A DNA stretch of 64,000 nt, taken from contig CALVKI010000010.1 of the NCBI GenBank assembly GCA_944332635.1, positions 21,579 to 85,578 of the forward strand, read 5' to 3'. The position numbers were made by a program, and so were the translations under genes. Below, piece by piece: positions 37,924-55,064 of this stretch. The DNA comes from an uncultured Bacilli bacterium. GTDB lineage: Bacteria > Bacillota_I > Bacilli_A > RF39 > UBA660. Below the pieces are notes generated by a model. The model did no database searches and was not told the DNA's origin. It saw nothing but the letters and a program-made list of their open reading frames with translations. Each line of letters begins with the position of its first letter. The stretch's first letter is position 1.

Positions 37924-38454
37924 ATGGAAATTATTATTCATGGGGATAAACTAAAAGTTACTGATGCTATGAAAGAGTATATTGAAGAAAAACTAGAAAA
38001 ATTAAATAAATACTTAGAAAATAGCGAAAGTATTCGCGCATCTGTCATAGTTAAAGTAAAAAATCACGAACAACGAGTAGAAATTACCATACCACTAAAA
38101 GCATATATTTTAAGATCAGAAGAATCTAAAGAAGACTTCTATGCTGCTGTTGATAAAACAGTAGATAAGCTAGAAAGGCAAATAAGGAAAAATAAAACTA
38201 AAATTATGTCAAAACAAGTAAAAACAAATCGTGACTTTTCTATATCTGCATTTGCTGATGAAGAAGATTCGGATGACAAAAAGGTCTTAAAGAGAAAGAA
38301 AGTTGAAGTAAAACCGATGAATGAAGAAGAGGCAATACTTCAAATGGAGCTCTTAGGTCACCAATTCTATATGTATAAAGACAGAGATACAGACCAAGTT
38401 GCAGTTGTATACAAGAGAACAGATGGAAACTATGGCGTAATTGAATCTGAATAA
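37924..38454 (+). CDS. hpf: Ribosome hibernation-promoting factor (long HPF/YvyD)
   Basis: 176 aa with an N-terminal RaiA fold and a C-terminal dimerisation domain. It lies upstream of secA, as in B. subtilis. Confidence 0.85.
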   Translation: MEIIIHGDKLKVTDAMKEYIEEKLEKLNKYLENSESIRASVIVKVKNHEQRVEITIPLKAYILRSEESKEDFYAAVDKTVDKLERQIRKNKTKIMSKQVKTNRDFSISAFADEEDSDDKKVLKRKKVEVKPMNEEEAILQMELLGHQFYMYKDRDTDQVAVVYKRTDGNYGVIESE

Positions 38455-38526: not shown

Positions 38527-41019
38527 ATGAAATTATTTAGAAAAATTTTTGATCATGAATACAAAGAATTAAAAAAATTTGCAGTTTTGGCAGATAAAAT
38601 TATAGATTTAGATGAAGAATATTCAAAATTAACCGATACAGAATTAAAAGCTAAAACTGAAGAATTTAGAGAGAGATTACAAAACGGAGAAACATTAGAG
38701 GATATTTTAGTAGAAGCTTTTGCAACAGCAAGAGAAGCGTCTTTCCGTATCTTAGGAGAAAAGCATTTTTATGTACAAATCCTTGGCGGTTTAGCGATTC
38801 ATTATGGTAATATAGCAGAGATGAAAACAGGCGAAGGAAAAACATTGACTTGTGTACTTCCTGGTTATTTAAATGCATTAACTGGTGAAGGTGTTCATGT
38901 CATTACCGTCAATGAATATTTAGCGGGGCGTGATGCAGAGTGGATGGGAGATATCTATCGTTTTCTAGGGTTGACTGTTGGCGTTAATACAAGAGAATTA
39001 AGTGCCAAAGAAAAACAAGAAGCATATAATTGTGATATTTTATATTCTACTAATAACGAAATAGGATTTGACTATTTAAGAGATAACATGGTAATTAGAA
39101 AAGAAGATCGTGTTCAAAGACCTTTAAATTTCGCAATTATCGATGAAGTGGATTCTGTTTTAATAGATGAAGCCCGAACACCTTTAATTATTTCAGGTGG
39201 CCAAATGAATAGTGCTAACTTATATTTAGATGCAGATCACTTTGCAAAAGGATTAAAAGCTGAAGATGATTATGTGTATGATGAGAAAACAAAAGCTGTA
39301 ACTCTAACTGAAAAAGGTAGTGAAAAAGCAGAAAAATCATTCCATGTAAAAAATCTATATGATATTGAAAATGCATCCTTAGTACATTATATCAATCAAG
39401 CATTGCGTGCAAATTATGCAATGAAAAATGATGTTGACTATGTAGTACAAGATGATGAAGTAGTAATTGTTGATCAATTTACTGGACGTTTGATGAAAGG
39501 TCGTGCATATTCAGATGGGCTTCATCAAGCTATAGAAGCAAAAGAAGGAGTAACTATCAACCAAGAAACTAAAACTTTAGCAACAATAACTTTCCAAAAT
39601 TTATTCAGAATGTATAAAAAATTATCTGGTATGACAGGTACTGCAAAAACAGAAGAAGAAGAATTTAGAAACATCTATAATATGTATGTTATAGAAATCC
39701 CAACAAATAAAGAAGTAATTCGTATTGATGCACCAGATTTAGTATATGCAACTAAGGAAGCTAAATATAAAGCAATTATACAATTTGTTAAGGAACGTTA
39801 TGAAAAAGGGCAACCAGTCTTGATTGGTACGATTGCAATCGAAACAAGTGAATTAATTAGTGATTTATTGAAAAAAGCACATATTCCACATGAAGTTTTA
39901 AATGCTAAAAATCATGCCCGTGAAGCAGAAATTATTTCAAAAATAGGACAACAAAAATCTGTAACAATTGCAACTAATATGGCTGGACGTGGAACTGACA
40001 TAAAGTTATCTGACGATATACGTAAGTTAGGTGGCCTTTGTGTAGTTGGTACAGAGCGTCATGAATCGCGTCGTATTGACAATCAGTTACGTGGTCGTTC
40101 TGGACGACAAGGAGATCCAGGATATACCCAGTTCTTTGTATCCATGAAAGATGATTTAATGGTTCGCTTTGGTTCTGATAGAATCGGGGAAATGATGAAA
40201 TCTATGGGACTTGGGGAACAAGCTATTCAGAGTAAAACTTTCACAAGATCTATTGGAACTGCACAAAAACGTGTAGAGGGAAATAACTTTGATATTCGTA
40301 AACAATTACTACAATACGACGATGTTATGAATGATCAAAGAGAAATAATGTACGCAAAAAGAAATAGAATTTTAGATAGTGAATCAATTCATGAAATGGT
40401 TTTAGACACTTTCCGTCACCACATAGAGGATTTAGTAAAATCACATTTAGCCCCAGAAGGTATTTTAGGAAAGCAAGACTATGAAGAAATAGCAGAGTAT
40501 GTAAACGAAAATTTACTAAAAAAAGATATAAAGGTAACAGAGATAGATGGATTATCAGATGAAGAGACAATAGATGTGTTAGTAAAGAAGATTACTAGCG
40601 AGTACGAAGAAAAAATAAAAGAAATTCCATCAGAAGTAACTGATGAATTTGAAAAAGCAATTACTTTACAAGTAGTAGATAATTATTGGATGGAACACAT
40701 TAACACAATGTCGCATTTAAGAGAAGGTATTCATCTAAGAGGATATGCACAGGAGGATCCACTTAGAGCTTATACAATGGAAGGATATAACATGTTTGAT
40801 GAGATGTTACAAAAAATTGATAAAGATGTAACAACTTTCTTATTAAGAGCAGAAATAAGACAAAATATTGAACGCAAAGAAGTATCAAAAAAGAAAATAA
40901 CTAACGAAGGTGGAAAAGAACCTGCAAAAAAAACACCCAAAAGAGTAAAAAAGATTGGTCGAAATGATCCTTGCCCATGTGGCTCAGGGAAGAAATATAA
41001 ACAATGTTGTGGTAAATAG
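38527..41019 (+). CDS. secA: Preprotein translocase ATPase SecA
   Basis: 830 aa with DEAD-like motor motifs and a C-terminal zinc-binding tail CPCGSGKKYKQCCG. Confidence 0.95.
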   Translation: MKLFRKIFDHEYKELKKFAVLADKIIDLDEEYSKLTDTELKAKTEEFRERLQNGETLEDILVEAFATAREASFRILGEKHFYVQILGGLAIHYGNIAEMKTGEGKTLTCVLPGYLNALTGEGVHVITVNEYLAGRDAEWMGDIYRFLGLTVGVNTRELSAKEKQEAYNCDILYSTNNEIGFDYLRDNMVIRKEDRVQRPLNFAIIDEVDSVLIDEARTPLIISGGQMNSANLYLDADHFAKGLKAEDDYVYDEKTKAVTLTEKGSEKAEKSFHVKNLYDIENASLVHYINQALRANYAMKNDVDYVVQDDEVVIVDQFTGRLMKGRAYSDGLHQAIEAKEGVTINQETKTLATITFQNLFRMYKKLSGMTGTAKTEEEEFRNIYNMYVIEIPTNKEVIRIDAPDLVYATKEAKYKAIIQFVKERYEKGQPVLIGTIAIETSELISDLLKKAHIPHEVLNAKNHAREAEIISKIGQQKSVTIATNMAGRGTDIKLSDDIRKLGGLCVVGTERHESRRIDNQLRGRSGRQGDPGYTQFFVSMKDDLMVRFGSDRIGEMMKSMGLGEQAIQSKTFTRSIGTAQKRVEGNNFDIRKQLLQYDDVMNDQREIMYAKRNRILDSESIHEMVLDTFRHHIEDLVKSHLAPEGILGKQDYEEIAEYVNENLLKKDIKVTEIDGLSDEETIDVLVKKITSEYEEKIKEIPSEVTDEFEKAITLQVVDNYWMEHINTMSHLREGIHLRGYAQEDPLRAYTMEGYNMFDEMLQKIDKDVTTFLLRAEIRQNIERKEVSKKKITNEGGKEPAKKTPKRVKKIGRNDPCPCGSGKKYKQCCGK

Positions 41020-41045
41020 TGATAAATAAAGGGTTTGCGAGGATT

Positions 41046-41163
41046 TTGTCCACGTAAAAAAACTCCAAAAAAGGCTATTTGTCCACATTTTATCCACGTA
41101 AATTAAATATTGTGGACAAAAAATCATGATTTATATAAAAATTTAGTATATTAATGTGGACAA
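41046..41163. promoter_or_regulatory. Cluster of five DnaA-box-like 9-mers
   Basis: The boxes are TTGTCCACG (41046-54, +), TTGTCCACA (41079-87, +), TTATCCACG (41090-98, +), TGTGGACAA (41111-19, -) and TGTGGACAA (41155-63, -). Each is within one mismatch of TTATCCACA. Confidence 0.5.
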
Positions 41164-41233
41164 ACATGTTGGATAAAGTCATCAAATTTGATGGCTTTTT
41201 TGTTTACCAAAATTTAGGAAAGAGGTATAAAAA

Positions 41234-41311
41234 ATGGTAAGCGTAAGAAAACGTGATAAGGTATATGAATACAGAATCGAAATAGCATCAATTGATGGAG
41301 TAAGAAAGTGA
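41234..41311 (+). pseudogene. Tyrosine recombinase (phage-type integrase) N-terminal stub, 25 codons
   Basis: MVSVRKRDKVYEYRIEIASIDGVRK followed by TGA. This is the canonical integrase arm-binding N-terminus (M..RKRG..W.YRI). It has an RBS GAAAGAGG. All frames downstream are closed. Confidence 0.5.
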
Positions 41312-41633
41312 ATTAAAACAAAATAGAATTCACAAAAAATTGAATTAGCAAGCTGACAAAACTGTGTTAAAATTAAATAGTTCTTTTGATATAATTAAAA
41401 CATCTATAATAAAAAGACTTACACAATGACAACAAATTAATTAAAAAAATAAAACATTATACAAATTTATTTAATAAATAATTAATAATAAATAAGGAAT
41501 AAAAAGATAATTTACATGATTTTTTAAAGAGGAAAAACATGTAAAGTGACAATCAAAAATAAAGCTTTCTATTTTAAAAAAAGAATAAATAAGAAAACTA
41601 ATGATATAATAAAAATATGAAAGGTAGGTAAAA

Positions 41634-42689
41634 ATGAAAGGACTAAATATATTTCAATATGGAGTAGGAAAGATGAGCGTTTATACTATGCGATATGTAA
41701 TAGAAAATGGAGGAACTATTGTAGGAGCAGTTGACATCAATCCTCAGGTTATAGGAAAAGATATTGGAGAAGTAATGAAGACAGAAAATACAGGTATAAA
41801 AGTTGAAAGTGTTGATAAAGCTGAAGAACTATTAAAAAAATTAAAACCTGACTGTGTTATTGTAACTACGATGAGCTTACTTGCTGATGTGGAGGATGCA
41901 TTAATGCTTTGTGCTAAATGTGGAGTAAATGCAATCACCACATGTGAAGAAGCATTTTTTCCAATGAATTCTAATCCAACATTAACAACAAAGATTGATA
42001 AACTTGCAAAAGAAAATAATTGTACTATTACGGGTAGTGGTTATCAAGATGCCTTTTGGGGTAATTTAATCACAACATTGGTAGGATCTAGTCATAATAT
42101 ATCAAAGATAAAAGGTAGTTCTTCCTATAATGTAGAAGATTATGGAATAGCATTAGCAAAAGCACATGGAGCAGGATTAACAAAAGAAGAATTTGACCGG
42201 GAAGTTGCTAGTGCTGATGACATAACTGATGAAGATAGACAGAAAGTAATAGAAAGTGGAAAATATGCACCTTCATATATGTGGAATGTAAATGGATGGA
42301 TATGTGATAAATTAGGGTTAACAGTAATAAGTCAAAAACAAAAATGTGTACCACAATTTAACGATTATGATATTGAATCCAGCACGTTAGGTATGACTGT
42401 AAAAGCAGGAATGGCAACAGGAATGAGTGCTGTAGTAACAACAGAAACAAAAGAAGGCATCACGTTAGAAACTGAATGTATAGGAAAAGTATATAATAAA
42501 GATGAATTTGATAGAAATGAATGGACTGTCTATGGAGAACCGAATACAACACTTACAATAGAAAAGCCAGCAACAGTAGAATTGACATGCGCAGCTATTG
42601 TTAATAGGATACCAGATGTTATAGCATCAAAGCCTGGATTTATTCCTACTTCTCGCATGGGTGAATTAAAATATATTAATAAAAAATAA
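41634..42689 (+). CDS. DapB-like NAD(P)-binding oxidoreductase (2,4-diaminopentanoate dehydrogenase Ord-like)
   Basis: 351 aa with an N-terminal Rossmann GxGxxG-like YGVGKMS...GAVDIN and a DapB-like architecture. Confidence 0.45.
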   Translation: MKGLNIFQYGVGKMSVYTMRYVIENGGTIVGAVDINPQVIGKDIGEVMKTENTGIKVESVDKAEELLKKLKPDCVIVTTMSLLADVEDALMLCAKCGVNAITTCEEAFFPMNSNPTLTTKIDKLAKENNCTITGSGYQDAFWGNLITTLVGSSHNISKIKGSSSYNVEDYGIALAKAHGAGLTKEEFDREVASADDITDEDRQKVIESGKYAPSYMWNVNGWICDKLGLTVISQKQKCVPQFNDYDIESSTLGMTVKAGMATGMSAVVTTETKEGITLETECIGKVYNKDEFDRNEWTVYGEPNTTLTIEKPATVELTCAAIVNRIPDVIASKPGFIPTSRMGELKYINKK

Positions 42690-42990
42690 AGTATAGAAAA
42701 AATCTATACTTTTTAATTAGAACATCAATAATAAATTATATATAGTTAGAATTATTATGAAATTAACATTTCAAGAACAAAATAGGAGTCAAAAATGACT
42801 CCTATATCTATTTACAGAGGATCTTCACACGTAACAGTGAACCTTCCTCATTTATAATATATGCAAGACATATAAATATATACAAAAATATTCAAATATA
42901 TTGAGAAAAGATAAAAAATATGTTACTTTATCATTGAATTTAAGAAAGAATAGAAAATAAAAATTAGTACAAACTATAAAGGAGAACAAA

Positions 42991-44089
42991 ATGGAATTAA
43001 AAGAAATAAAAGAACAATTAAATCAAAGTAATAAGCAACTAAAAGAATTATGGAGGTCACTTTGACATAGATAATAGAAAAAATCAAGTAAAAGAATTAG
43101 AAGAAAAAGTAAATGATATTAATTTCTGGAATGATAGAGAAAAAGCCGAGAAAATAATTAAACAATTGAACTCTGAAAAAGAGATAGTAGAAAGTATAGA
43201 AAAGCTATTGATACAAGCAACAGAAAACCTAGAACTAGCTGATTTATTAGAAGTAGAAAATGATGTGGAAAGTAAACAAGAATTAGAACAAGAAACTGTG
43301 AGTATAAAACAAAAAACAGAAGAAATAAGCTTATTTTTACTGTTAGATGGTCCATACGATAAGAATGATTGTATTCTAGAGATTCATCCAGGAGCAGGGG
43401 GGACAGAATCTTGTGATTGGGCATTAATGCTATATAGAATGTATACAAGATGGTGTGAAAAGAAGAAATATAAAATAGAAATATTAGACTATCAAGATGG
43501 GGATGAAGCCGGAATTAAAAATGTTTCAATTAGAGTTAAAGGCCAAAATGCTTATGGCTATCTAAAAAGTGAAAAAGGAGTTCATAGATTAGTTAGACTA
43601 TCACCGTTTGATTCTAATAATAGACGCCATACATCATTTGCTTCAGTGGAAATCACTCCAGAAATAGAACAAGATAATGATATTCAAATAGATGAAAAAG
43701 AATTAAAAATAGATGTCTATCGTTCAACAGGAGCAGGAGGACAAGGTGTTAATACTACAGATTCAGCAGTAAGAATTACACATCTACCAACTAAAATTGT
43801 GGTAACTTGCCAGAATGAAAGAAGTCAAATTCAAAATAAAGAACAAGCTTTAAAAGTTTTAAAGAGCAAGTTATTATTAAATAAAATAGAAAAACAAGAG
43901 CAAGAATTAAATGAAATAAAAGGAGAACAATCAAATATTAATTTTGGCTCACAAATTAGAAGTTATGTTCTGCATCCATATTCAATGGTAAAAGATCATA
44001 GAACTAATGTAGAAACCAGTAATGTTAGTAAAGTATTAGATGGAGATATAGATGAATTTATTGAGGCACAATTAAAACATAAAAAATAA
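42991..44089 (+). CDS. prfB: Peptide chain release factor 2, with programmed +1 ribosomal frameshift at CTT TGA C (43060-43066)
   Basis: Frame 0 reads MELKEIKEQLNQSNKQLKELWRSL and stops at TGA 43063-65. An SD-like GGAGG sits 3 nt upstream of the CTT codon. The +1 frame continues DIDNRKNQVKEL through to the GGQ motif STGAGGQGVNTT. Confidence 0.9.
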
Positions 44090-54224: not shown

Positions 54225-55064
54225 ATGGATAAGTATAAAAAAGTATATATAGAAATAACTAATATTTGTAATCTTAATTGTTCATTTTGTTCACCAATAA
54301 GAAAACAAAAACGATTTATGGAAGAAAAAGAATTTGAACACATTCTAAAACAAATATCAAAAGTAACCAAAGTAATTTATCTTCATGTTAAAGGCGAACC
54401 TTTATTACATCCAAAAATAATCAATTTTTTACGAATTGCTGAAAAATATAACGTAAATGTAAATTTAACAACAAACGGAATTTTATTTCCTACGTTAGTA
54501 GAAAAATTAAAAGACTGTAAATCATTACATAAGATAAATTTTTCTCTTCATTGTGAACAAAACATTCCTAACTATGAAGAAGCAATATTTAAAAATGTAG
54601 AAAAATTATCCCCAAATACTGTGATTATTTACCGATTATGGACATTAAAAGATAATAAATTAGATGAAAAGTCTATAAAAACAGTGAAAAAATTAGAAAG
54701 ATATTATAATTTATCCACAGAAACAGTGGAAAAATTAAAAACAGAAAACAATGTAAAGATTTCTTCCACAATATATGTGGATAAAGATAATGAGTTTAAA
54801 TGGCCAGAAATTACAAATCACAAGAGTTGTGGATATTGTCATGGGCTAAAAACTCAACTGGCAATTTTAGTAGATGGAACAGTAGTACCATGTTGTCTTG
54901 ATAGTGATAGCATTATTAATTTAGGAAATATATTTAATGAAACAATAGAAGAAATTCAAAAAAAGGAAAGATATAAAAAATTAAAAAAATCATTTCAAGA
55001 TAGAAAGCCAAGTGAAGCTCTGTGCCAATCATGCACGTTTAAGGAAAGGGATATAAAATGTTAA
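54225..55064 (+). CDS. Radical SAM enzyme with C-terminal SPASM/twitch auxiliary-cluster domain
   Basis: Has the radical SAM motif CNLNCSFC, the GGEPLL-like VKGEPLL, and C-terminal cysteines CGYCHG...VPCCLDSD...GN...CQSC. Confidence 0.75.
   Translation: MDKYKKVYIEITNICNLNCSFCSPIRKQKRFMEEKEFEHILKQISKVTKVIYLHVKGEPLLHPKIINFLRIAEKYNVNVNLTTNGILFPTLVEKLKDCKSLHKINFSLHCEQNIPNYEEAIFKNVEKLSPNTVIIYRLWTLKDNKLDEKSIKTVKKLERYYNLSTETVEKLKTENNVKISSTIYVDKDNEFKWPEITNHKSCGYCHGLKTQLAILVDGTVVPCCLDSDSIINLGNIFNETIEEIQKKERYKKLKKSFQDRKPSEALCQSCTFKERDIKC

What the first reader, a model, noticed from the sequence alone, without database searches (positions are those of the whole stretch)
41020..42990. Insertion between secA and prfB: DnaA-box cluster, integrase N-terminal stub, AT-rich tract and an Ord-like dehydrogenase gene
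secA and prfB are normally adjacent. Here about 2 kb intervenes, containing four elements in order. First are five 9-mers within one mismatch of the DnaA box (TTGTCCACA x3, TTATCCACG, TTGTCCACG) packed into 118 bp (41046-41163). Second is a 25-codon ORF (41234-41311) that is a textbook tyrosine-integrase N-terminus (MVSVRKRDKVYEYRI...) ending abruptly. Third is about 300 bp of >85% AT ORF-free DNA (41312-41633). Fourth is a DapB/Ord-like oxidoreductase gene. The combination looks like the scar of an integrated element with its replication or arm-site region, or a DnaA-titrating box cluster of the kind B. subtilis carries at six chromosomal sites.
Basis: partly seen in the sequence, partly recalled or inferred. 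Interest (0 to 1): 0.6.

Follow-up and report, generated by a model that had tools for sequence, protein, structure and literature searches.

The report
Mobile-element scar downstream of secA
The "DnaA boxes" after secA are most likely the integrase-docking repeats at the left end of a decayed mobile element that inserts into the tail of secA in uncultured gut Bacilli. The scar itself is ordinary, but in the element family behind it the repeat word changes together with the integrase N-terminus.

Summary
Window ~40975-41311 is the left junction (attL) of a decayed integrative element that inserts into the last ~45 nt of secA.

- **Intact relatives.** The same secA tail, five-word cluster, terminator hairpin and gene start recur at the same offsets in many gut-Bacilli contigs. 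There they are followed by an intact 435-aa tyrosine integrase with an N-terminal arm-binding domain. The window keeps only codons 1-25.
- **Horizontal origin.** Identity to one such element (host SecA 78% identical) jumps to 93-100% inside the secA tail.
- **Variable word.** Homologous elements carry at least 12 other words at the same positions (TGTGCAC, TGTTCGC, TGTTTCC and others). The word tracks the integrase N-terminal 45 residues. One integrase pair is 98% identical elsewhere but 72% identical there, and it has different words.
- **Both arms.** In complete units the same word recurs as a doublet about 125-165 nt before a second secA-tail copy (attR).

The 9-mers are therefore best read as arm-type integrase sites. 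TTGTCCACA resembles a DnaA box by coincidence. The Ord-like gene is a resident neighbour, not cargo. The window has no attR. This is an ordinary scar from an apparently undescribed secA-targeting element family.

The parts
38527..41019 (+). secA. The last ~45 nt are chimeric, supplied by the element.
   Evidence: Pfam SecA domains. Identity to L061 jumps from about 55-80% to 93-100% at ~40970.
40975..40982 (+). Approximate crossover region of attL (CCATGTGG, codons Pro-Cys-Gly of the SEC-C motif).
   Evidence: All downstream secA-tail remnants in relatives begin at C[AT]TGTGG. The identity jump against L061 falls here. The exact crossover point is inferred.
40983..41045 (+). Element-borne replacement secA tail, stop codon, and the conserved ATAAATAAAGGGTTTGCGAGGATTT motif.
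   Evidence: 93-100% identical to L061/L062 although the hosts differ. The motif recurs after secA in many loci.
41046..41054 (+). Word 1, TTGTCCACG. Putative arm-type integrase site on the P' arm.
41079..41087 (+). Word 2, TTGTCCACA.
41090..41098 (+). Word 3, TTATCCACG. It is TTGTCCAC in all relatives. With word 2 it forms an 11-nt-spaced doublet.
41111..41119 (-). Word 4, TTGTCCACA, inverted.
41155..41163 (-). Word 5, TTGTCCACA, inverted.
41175..41204 (+). Terminator hairpin plus T-run. It now ends the secA transcript and insulates int.
   Evidence: Terminator scan. A hairpin plus T-run occupies the same position in every element subtype, with different sequences.
41217..41311 (+). RBS GGAAAGAGG (41217-41225) and the integrase stub (41234-41311, 25 codons). 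The deletion joint is at 41310/41311.
   Evidence: 24/25 identical to L061 Int residues 1-25, with nothing beyond. Divergence point shown.
41312..41633 (.). AT-rich spacer, 83.2% A+T. Its right part (~41408-41633) is the native region upstream of the Ord-like gene. The origin of 41312-41407 is unknown.
   Evidence: Weak 64-68% homology to Ord-upstream DNA of L064, L063 and L053. No secA-tail remnant found.
41634..42689 (+). Ord/DapB-like NAD(P) oxidoreductase. A resident gene, not part of the element.
   Evidence: 83-87% identical homologues sit between secA and prfB in L007, L053, L058, L059, L063 and L064. In L059 it lies distal to the last secA remnant.
42782..42805 (+). Bidirectional terminator hairpin after the Ord-like gene.
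42817..42858 (+). Conserved dyad GAGGATCTTCAC-N8-GTGAACCTTCCTC overlapping a promoter-like site for prfB. A side observation, not part of the element.
42991..44089 (+). prfB with the +1 frameshift site CTTTGAC at 43060-43066.

Best explanation
Window ~40975-41311 is the left junction (attL plus P' arm plus the 5' end of int) of a dead integrative, probably mobilizable, element. The family inserts into the last ~45 nt of secA in uncultured gut Bacilli.

**How intact members work (inferred by analogy with lambda- and Tn916-type integrases; no binding or recombination was tested).**
- The element carries its own copy of the secA tail, so integration restores secA.
- The displaced original tail is left at the right end of the element as attR.
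- Downstream of the new tail lie 3 direct and 1-2 inverted copies of a short word, here tTTGTCCACr.
- These are followed by a terminator that stops secA read-through, and then by int.
- The words are arm-type sites bound by the integrase N-terminal arm-binding domain. A matching doublet about 125-165 nt inside the right end forms the P arm.
- Together the arm sites would assemble the intasome and set the direction of recombination, with an HTH_17 excisionase.

**State in the window.** A deletion removed everything from int codon 26 through attR. What remains is the chimeric secA tail, the orphan arm sites, the terminator (probably now the secA terminator) and a 25-codon stub. The resemblance of TTGTCCACA to a DnaA box is coincidental.

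**What is shown and what is inferred.** Shown: element origin, homology to intact elements, the target site, and covariation between word and N-terminus. Inferred: physical binding of the integrase to the words, the exact crossover point, and the terminator's role.
For: 1. **Same architecture in relatives.** The same offsets (30, 63, 74, 95 and 139 nt after secA) occur in L003, L006, L019, L025, L033, L035, L061 and L062, whose SecA is 78-95% identical. In loci whose contig extends far enough and is not interrupted (L006, L019, L033, L061, L062), a 435-aa integrase follows (truncated by the contig end in L019), with Phage_integrase, SAM_3 and Arm-DNA-bind_4 domains. Arm-DNA-bind_4 matches 7 of 8 representatives, best E-value 2.9e-7.
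2. **Horizontal origin.** Identity between the window and L061 jumps to 93-100% at ~40970 inside secA and ends at 41310.
3. **Target duplication.** At least 18 loci carry 1-2 extra copies of the last ~44 nt of secA, 0.7-9 kb downstream. All begin at C[AT]TGTGG.
4. **Variable word at fixed positions.** All 81 integrases of 55-85% identity that had enough upstream sequence to check lie directly after a secA tail. 80 of them have a word with at least 3 copies, falling into 12 classes.
5. **The word tracks the N-terminal 45 residues.**
   - At matched identity in the rest of the protein, different-word pairs are much less alike in the N-terminus: 0.74 vs 0.98 at 90-100% identity, and 0.69 vs 0.86 at 80-90%.
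   - L147 and L148 are 98% identical downstream of residue 45 and 72% identical in the N-terminus. Their words are TGTTTGT and TGTTTCC.
   - All 33 distinct TGTCCAC-class integrases share RKRGKVYEYR, as does the window stub (RKRDKVYEYR).
6. **Words on both arms.** In 5 of 15 units bounded by two secA tails, the left-end word recurs as an 11-12-nt-spaced doublet 124-164 nt before the right tail. One of these is a TGTCCAC unit, L021. Word density there is 3.0 per kb against 0.24 per kb in the interior.
7. **Other element proteins do not track the word.** L033 (TGTCCAC) and L046 (TGTGCAC) share a 92%-identical Xis and a 77%-identical winged-helix protein.
8. **Mobile-element backbone.** It includes HTH_17 Xis and a Mob_Pre relaxase.
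Against: - No binding data exist. The arm-site assignment rests on architecture and covariation.
- The words adjoin the int 5' end, so part of the covariation could be simple linkage. The distant P-arm doublets and the matching motif in a second integrase about 4 kb away argue against linkage alone.
- Only 5 of 15 bounded units show a P-arm doublet. Many units are decayed or composite.
- TGTCCAC-class elements with int next to secA were never seen complete within 8 kb, so their own right ends were not observed. L021, the TGTCCAC unit with words on both arms, has a more distant, fragmented integrase.
- The window lacks attR, so integration here is inferred from homology.
- TTGTCCACA is one mismatch from a DnaA box, so incidental DnaA binding cannot be excluded.
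Confidence: 0.8

Rival explanations
1. The cluster is a chromosomal DnaA-box cluster. It would titrate DnaA or regulate neighbouring genes, like the six non-oriC clusters of B. subtilis.
For: - Four 9-mers within one mismatch of TTATCCACA, plus one with two mismatches, lie within 118 bp of intergenic DNA. This is far above background.
- TTGTCCACA is a DnaA-box consensus in some bacteria (own knowledge).
- B. subtilis has such clusters (PMC3245932).
Against: - The cluster lies on horizontally acquired element DNA.
- It is absent from the closest relatives L001, L002, L004 and L005, yet present in distant ones.
- Every copy deviates from the low-GC consensus at the same position. The family word is TTTGTCCACr, and the only A at position 3 is a window-specific mutation.
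- Homologous elements have at least 12 non-DnaA words at the same offsets, and these track the integrase N-terminus.
- The word also marks the far end of complete units.
Confidence: 0.05
2. The words are operators or iterons for another element-encoded DNA-binding protein rather than the integrase. Candidates are the winged-helix HTH_36/DnaD_N-like protein and the excisionase. The sites would control int expression or replication of the excised circle.
For: - Elements encode a winged-helix protein with weak DnaD_N and Phage_rep_O similarity, and an HTH_17 protein.
- The words lie upstream of int.
- Direct plus inverted arrangements resemble iteron or operator arrays.
Against: - L033 and L046 have a 92%-identical Xis and a 77%-identical winged-helix protein but different words (words).
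- L147 and L148 differ essentially only in the integrase N-terminus and the word, and share no similarity downstream of int.
- Elements with unrelated cargo share the word whenever they share the N-terminus, for example L061 and L033.
- A terminator separates the words from int.
- Doublets at lambda-like distances on both arms fit arm sites.
Confidence: 0.1
3. The segment is vertically inherited chromosomal DNA. The stub would be a chance small ORF or a domesticated fragment, and the 9-mers an unrelated repeat.
For: The window has no attR and no other element gene.
Against: - 95% nucleotide identity over 325 nt to an element in a host whose SecA is only 78% identical.
- The stub is 24/25 identical to intact integrases.
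- The distribution among relatives is mosaic.
Confidence: 0.02

Closest known systems
Lambda-type attP/attL organisation with arm-type sites (lambda Int P1, P2, P'1-3; prophage order attL-int-xis)
   Same: - int lies next to attL.
- Several short arm words sit tens to about 190 nt from the core on the int side, with a doublet about 125-165 nt from the core on the other arm.
- The integrase has an N-terminal arm-binding domain.
- A small HTH excisionase is present.
   Different: - The core lies in the 3' coding end of secA, not in an intergenic or tRNA site.
- The P' arm mixes direct and inverted words.
- A terminator lies between the arm sites and int.
- No binding or recombination data exist.
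IntTn916-subgroup tyrosine recombinases, with a three-stranded-sheet AB domain (PMC8138268; Tn916 Int N-domain NMR structure cited there)
   Same: Pfam Arm-DNA-bind_4, Phage_int_SAM_3 and Phage_integrase architecture. Weak PDB sequence hits include Tn1549 Int, 6emy/6en0. The host is a Gram-positive lineage.
   Different: Sequence identity to solved integrases is low. Subgroup membership was not tested phylogenetically. Unlike Tn916, this family is site-specific for the secA tail.
Integrative mobilizable elements of Firmicutes that insert in the 3' end of conserved genes and accumulate in tandem (streptococcal IMEs, ICESt3 and CIME accretion; own knowledge)
   Same: - A tyrosine integrase plus Xis plus a Mob_Pre-type relaxase, with no conjugation machinery seen.
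- The elements rebuild the target gene's 3' end.
- Tandem arrays of decayed units, including units without an integrase, are bounded by att copies.
   Different: - The target (the secA tail) was not found in the literature searched.
- The hosts are uncultured gut Bacilli.
- The family shows an unusually broad set of arm-site words on one shared core.
B. subtilis non-oriC DnaA-box clusters (PMC3245932)
   Same: A tight intergenic cluster of 9-mers close to TTATCCACA.
   Different: It is located on mobile DNA and is not conserved by descent. In sister elements the word is replaced by unrelated words. There is no evidence of DnaA binding.

Membership tests
DnaA-box cluster / DnaA titration site | Several 9-mers matching TTATNCACA (at most 1 mismatch) clustered in non-coding DNA | tested here: met
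   Four sites with at most 1 mismatch and one with 2 mismatches lie within 118 bp. All deviate at position 3 or 9.
DnaA-box cluster / DnaA titration site | A chromosomal feature conserved by descent at the same locus in related genomes | tested here: not met
   It is mosaic among relatives, lies on horizontally shared DNA, and is replaced by at least 12 other words in homologous elements.
DnaA-box cluster / DnaA titration site | DnaA occupancy in vivo or in vitro | not testable with these tools
   Needs ChIP-seq or EMSA.
attL of an element driven by an arm-binding-domain tyrosine integrase | An adjacent tyrosine recombinase gene with AB, core-binding and catalytic domains | tested here: met
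   Intact in relatives. The window retains only codons 1-25, which are 96% identical.
attL of an element driven by an arm-binding-domain tyrosine integrase | The target sequence is duplicated at both element ends (attL and attR) | tested here: inconclusive
   Met in at least 18 related loci. Not met in the window, which has no second secA tail, as expected for a deletion remnant.
attL of an element driven by an arm-binding-domain tyrosine integrase | Repeated arm words on both arms at set distances from the core | tested here: met
   The P' cluster is present in all classes. P-arm doublets lie at -124 to -164 nt in 5 of 15 bounded units, including the TGTCCAC unit L021.
attL of an element driven by an arm-binding-domain tyrosine integrase | Arm-word specificity is determined by the AB domain | tested here: met
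   Covariation at matched C-terminal identity, and the L147/L148 natural swap. This is correlative evidence only.
attL of an element driven by an arm-binding-domain tyrosine integrase | The integrase binds the words and catalyses integration and excision | not testable with these tools
   Needs EMSA and recombination assays.
Integrative mobilizable element (IME) | A relaxase or oriT is present without a conjugative transfer apparatus | tested here: inconclusive
   A Mob_Pre relaxase is present in L033 and L101 units and no T4SS genes were seen. Only two units were annotated, and nothing of this survives in the window.
2,4-diaminopentanoate dehydrogenase (Ord) | Reaches the NCBIfam equivalog cut-off (NF040740, 400 bits) | tested here: not met
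   127.5 bits. The Pfam DAP_DH_C domain is present at 37.9 bits against a 23.3-bit cut-off.

The most novel reading that the evidence does not exclude
The secA-tail elements form a natural series of at least 12 mutually orthogonal pairs of arm-binding domain and arm word, all using one shared core site. Under this reading, diversification of the arm code lets many elements, including two-integrase composites whose integrases share one code, pile up in tandem at the same attB without cross-excising each other. The window's TTGTCCACA class is one code word. It happens to mimic a DnaA box and might additionally recruit DnaA.
Probability: 0.4. Interest if true: 0.5.

Novelty: new member of a known kind. 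Interest (0 to 1): 0.3.

Why it matters
**For this window: a correction.**
- An apparent DnaA-box cluster should not be annotated as a replication-control element.
- The last 14 codons of secA and its present terminator are element-derived.

**More broadly.**
- The secA tail appears to be an undescribed integration hot spot in uncultured gut Bacilli.
- It breaks metagenome assemblies: about 25 of 80 contigs end within 600 nt of secA.
- It accumulates tandem, decaying elements carrying Abi, Schlafen/AlbA, Fic and hydrolase cargo.

**Possible use.** The clean covariation between the integrase N-terminal strand motif (YEYR, YQYR, YQYQ, YQYK, YQYY and others) and the arm word gives a ready-made data set. 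It could be used to study how arm-binding domains read DNA, and to choose orthogonal integrase/attP pairs.

Tried and rejected
- **Rfam.** Gathering thresholds over the whole window and E-value mode on 40950-43050 found nothing relevant.
- **Stub against phage records.** tblastn of the 25-aa stub found no match. The query is too short.
- **IMG/VR scan with the integrase alignment.** Only integrases of 46% identity or less were found, without the word architecture. The family is not evidently phage-borne.
- **Search for attR in the window.** A scan of 41030-43000 for a second secA tail found nothing above background.
- **Origin of 41312-41407.** This stretch matches nothing specific. Only AT-rich noise and weak Ord-upstream homology from about 41408 onward were found.
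- **Crossover in a terminator loop.** I first considered that the crossover lay in the loop of a secA terminator hairpin (CCTCGCAAACCC-TTATAAAATAA-GGGTTTGCGAGG). I dropped this because the duplicated segment at every attR is the secA coding tail starting at C[AT]TGTGG. The role of the half-hairpin motifs remains unexplained.
- **Literature.** Searches for integration at secA returned nothing relevant.
- **Second apparent box cluster.** The one at 54606-54836 lies inside a coding sequence and was not pursued.
- **Structure prediction of the AB domain.** Not possible: tool rules restrict input to window-encoded proteins, and the stub is shorter than 30 aa.
Full report
**1. What is there.** The window comes from a ~27% G+C genome. 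The order on the + strand is hpf (37924-38454), secA (38527-41019), the finding region, and prfB (42991 onward, with the usual CTTTGAC +1 frameshift site).
- The five 9-mers are at 41046(+), 41079(+), 41090(+), 41111(-) and 41155(-). Four are within one mismatch of TTATCCACA, and TTGTCCACG has two mismatches.
- The window as a whole has 38 hits with at most one mismatch, against 22.8 expected. Four within 85 bp is far beyond chance.
- A terminator-like hairpin with a T-run lies at 41175-41198.
- It is followed by the RBS GGAAAGAGG and the 25-codon ORF 41234-41311.
- 41312-41633 is 83.2% A+T.
- 41634-42689 encodes an Ord/DapB-like oxidoreductase. It matches Pfam DAP_DH_C at 1.9e-9 and scores 127 bits on NCBIfam ornith_Ord, below the 400-bit cut-off.
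- Rfam finds nothing relevant.

**2. Relatives.** A scan of one genome per species with SecA returned 80 loci. Nearly all are uncultured gut Bacilli MAGs, with SecA 71-97% identical (taxonomy).
- About 25 of these contigs end within 600 nt after secA. This marks a repeated or strain-variable region.
- The word cluster recurs at the same offsets (30, 63, 74, 95 and 139 nt after secA) in L003, L006, L019, L025, L033, L035, L061 and L062, whose SecA is 78-95% identical. It is absent from the closest relatives L001, L002, L004 and L005.
- In L006, L019 (truncated by the contig end), L033, L061 and L062 the hairpin is followed by MVSVRKRGKVYEYR..., the start of a 435-aa tyrosine integrase.
- That integrase has Phage_integrase, Phage_int_SAM_3 and Arm-DNA-bind_4 domains.
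- The window stub is 24/25 identical to it. It ends where TGG has become TGA and the sequences diverge (41309-41311). No other integrase fragment exists in the window.

**3. The segment is mobile DNA and the target is the secA tail.**
- Against L061 (SecA 78% identical), nucleotide identity is about 55-80% through secA. It jumps to 93-100% from ~40970 to 41310.
- At least 18 loci carry one or two extra copies of the last ~44 nt of secA, 0.7-9 kb downstream. Every copy begins at C[AT]TGTGG and is preceded by unrelated element ends.
- The elements therefore insert into the SEC-C codons of secA, bring a replacement tail, and leave the old tail at attR. Successive insertions build tandem arrays.
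- The window has no second tail. A deletion therefore removed int from codon 26 through attR.

**4. The 9-mers are one of many words.**
- Loci with the same architecture carry different words at the same positions. Examples are TTGTTTCC (L002, L005, L009), TAGATACGT (L001) and TGTGCACA (L017, L046).
- A metagenome scan with an alignment of eight integrases gave 80 more loci.
- All 81 integrases of 55-85% identity that had enough upstream sequence to check sit directly after a secA tail. 80 of them have a word with at least 3 copies. The 12 classes are TGTCCAC, TGACCAC, TGTGCAC, TGTGTGC, TGTTCGC, TGTTTGC, TGTTTGT, TGTTTCC, TGACA[GT]C, TGTCAAC, TGT[TC]GCC and CCTCAT.
- Words are confined to the ~120-bp cluster and, in complete units, to the right end.

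**5. The word follows the integrase N-terminus.**
- Each class has its own N-terminal strand motif:
  - YEYR with TGTCCAC
  - YQYR with TGTGCAC or TGTGTGC
  - YQYQ with TGTTCGC or TGTTTGT
  - YQYK with TGTTTGC or TGTTTCC
  - YQYY with TTGACAT
- At matched identity in residues 46 to the end, different-word pairs are much less alike in residues 1-45: 0.74 vs 0.98 at 90-100% identity, and 0.69 vs 0.86 at 80-90%.
- L147 and L148 are 98% identical after residue 45 and 72% identical before it. They carry TGTTTGT and TGTTTCC respectively, and share nothing downstream of int.
- L033 (TGTCCAC) and L046 (TGTGCAC) share a 92%-identical Xis and a 77%-identical winged-helix protein. Those proteins are therefore poor candidates for reading the word.
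- Composite units carry a second integrase about 4 kb away that is only ~40% identical. Its strand motif matches the first integrase in 17 of 19 loci.

**6. Words occur on both arms.**
- In 5 of 15 units bounded by two secA tails, the left-end word recurs as an 11-12-nt-spaced doublet 124-164 nt before the right tail. These units are L001, L021, L078, L101 and L152.
- Word density is 3.0 per kb there, against 0.24 per kb in unit interiors.
- L021 is a TGTCCAC unit with TGTCCACATTTTGTCCACA at -161/-150. Its integrase is distant but has the YEYR motif.
- This layout matches lambda-type attP geometry and the known role of AB domains (PMC8138268).

**7. Element type.**
- The L101 unit (7.7-16.5 kb of that locus) encodes, in order: int1, a conserved ~220-aa protein of unknown function, an alpha/beta hydrolase, a winged-helix HTH_36 protein, HTH_17 Xis, int2, a Mob_Pre relaxase and a Fic protein.
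- L033 and L061 carry AlbA_2/HATPase_c_4 and Abi_2 cargo respectively.
- This fits an integrative mobilizable element.
- IMG/VR holds only integrases of 46% identity or less, without the word architecture.
- No paper on integration at secA was found.

**8. What is not part of the element.**
- The Ord-like gene lies between secA and prfB in L007, L053, L058, L059, L063 and L064, at 83-87% protein identity.
- In L059 it follows the last secA remnant and its terminator. It is therefore a resident gene.
- The right part of the AT-rich tract (~41408-41633) is weakly homologous to Ord-upstream DNA of relatives.

**9. Verdict.** The 'element scar with arm-site region' reading is supported. The DnaA-cluster reading (compare PMC3245932) fails the conservation test and is displaced by the word/AB-domain covariation. 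Physical binding, the crossover point and the terminator's function remain inferred.

Noticed in passing
window 42817-42858: A conserved dyad, GAGGATCTTCAC-N8-GTGAACCTTCCTC, overlaps the -35 of a promoter-like site (GTAACA...TATAAT) upstream of prfB. Most of the nine other loci match at 81-91% identity (L044 about 75%), although their PrfB is only 64-85% identical. There is one compensatory pair, in L044, and no Rfam match. It could be an operator or an RNA hairpin.
   Followed up: partly
L001-L080, downstream of secA: About 25 of 80 contigs end within 600 nt after the secA stop. This is an assembly-break hot spot caused by variable or tandem elements at this site.
   Followed up: partly
L101 7992-13538; also L033, L046, L084-L097, L104, L105, L123, L124, L152, L159: Composite units carry two arm-binding-domain integrases: int1 at attL, and int2 directly after the HTH_17 Xis and before a Mob_Pre relaxase. 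The two are only ~40% identical, but their N-terminal strand motif matches in 17 of 19 loci.
   Followed up: partly
L003 2868-3593: In a close relative (SecA 95% identical), the same word cluster and terminator are 97.6% identical to the window up to 41204. They are then followed by an IS200/IS605-type TnpA (155 aa) with flanking hairpins instead of int.
   Followed up: partly
L001 10461-12884; L078 10461-12764: Units bounded by two secA tails have matching words on both arms but no integrase gene. They resemble non-autonomous, cis-mobilizable elements.
   Followed up: no
window 54606-54836: Four DnaA-box-like 9-mers, including two perfect TTATCCACA in convergent orientation (54711+, 54776-), lie inside CDS 54225-55064. 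This is probably chance.
   Followed up: no
window 41020-41045, and the equivalent position in most loci: Half-hairpin motifs (ATAAAATAAGGGTTTGCGAGG after the secA stop, and GCAAACCCTTATAAAATAAGG inside many word clusters) recur across element classes. Their role is unexplained. They could be a terminator fossil, a bending-protein site or a secondary att site.
   Followed up: partly
window 43060-43066: prfB has the canonical programmed +1 frameshift site CTTTGAC preceded by an SD-like GGAGG. UGA is therefore a stop codon in this Mollicutes-like lineage.
   Followed up: no
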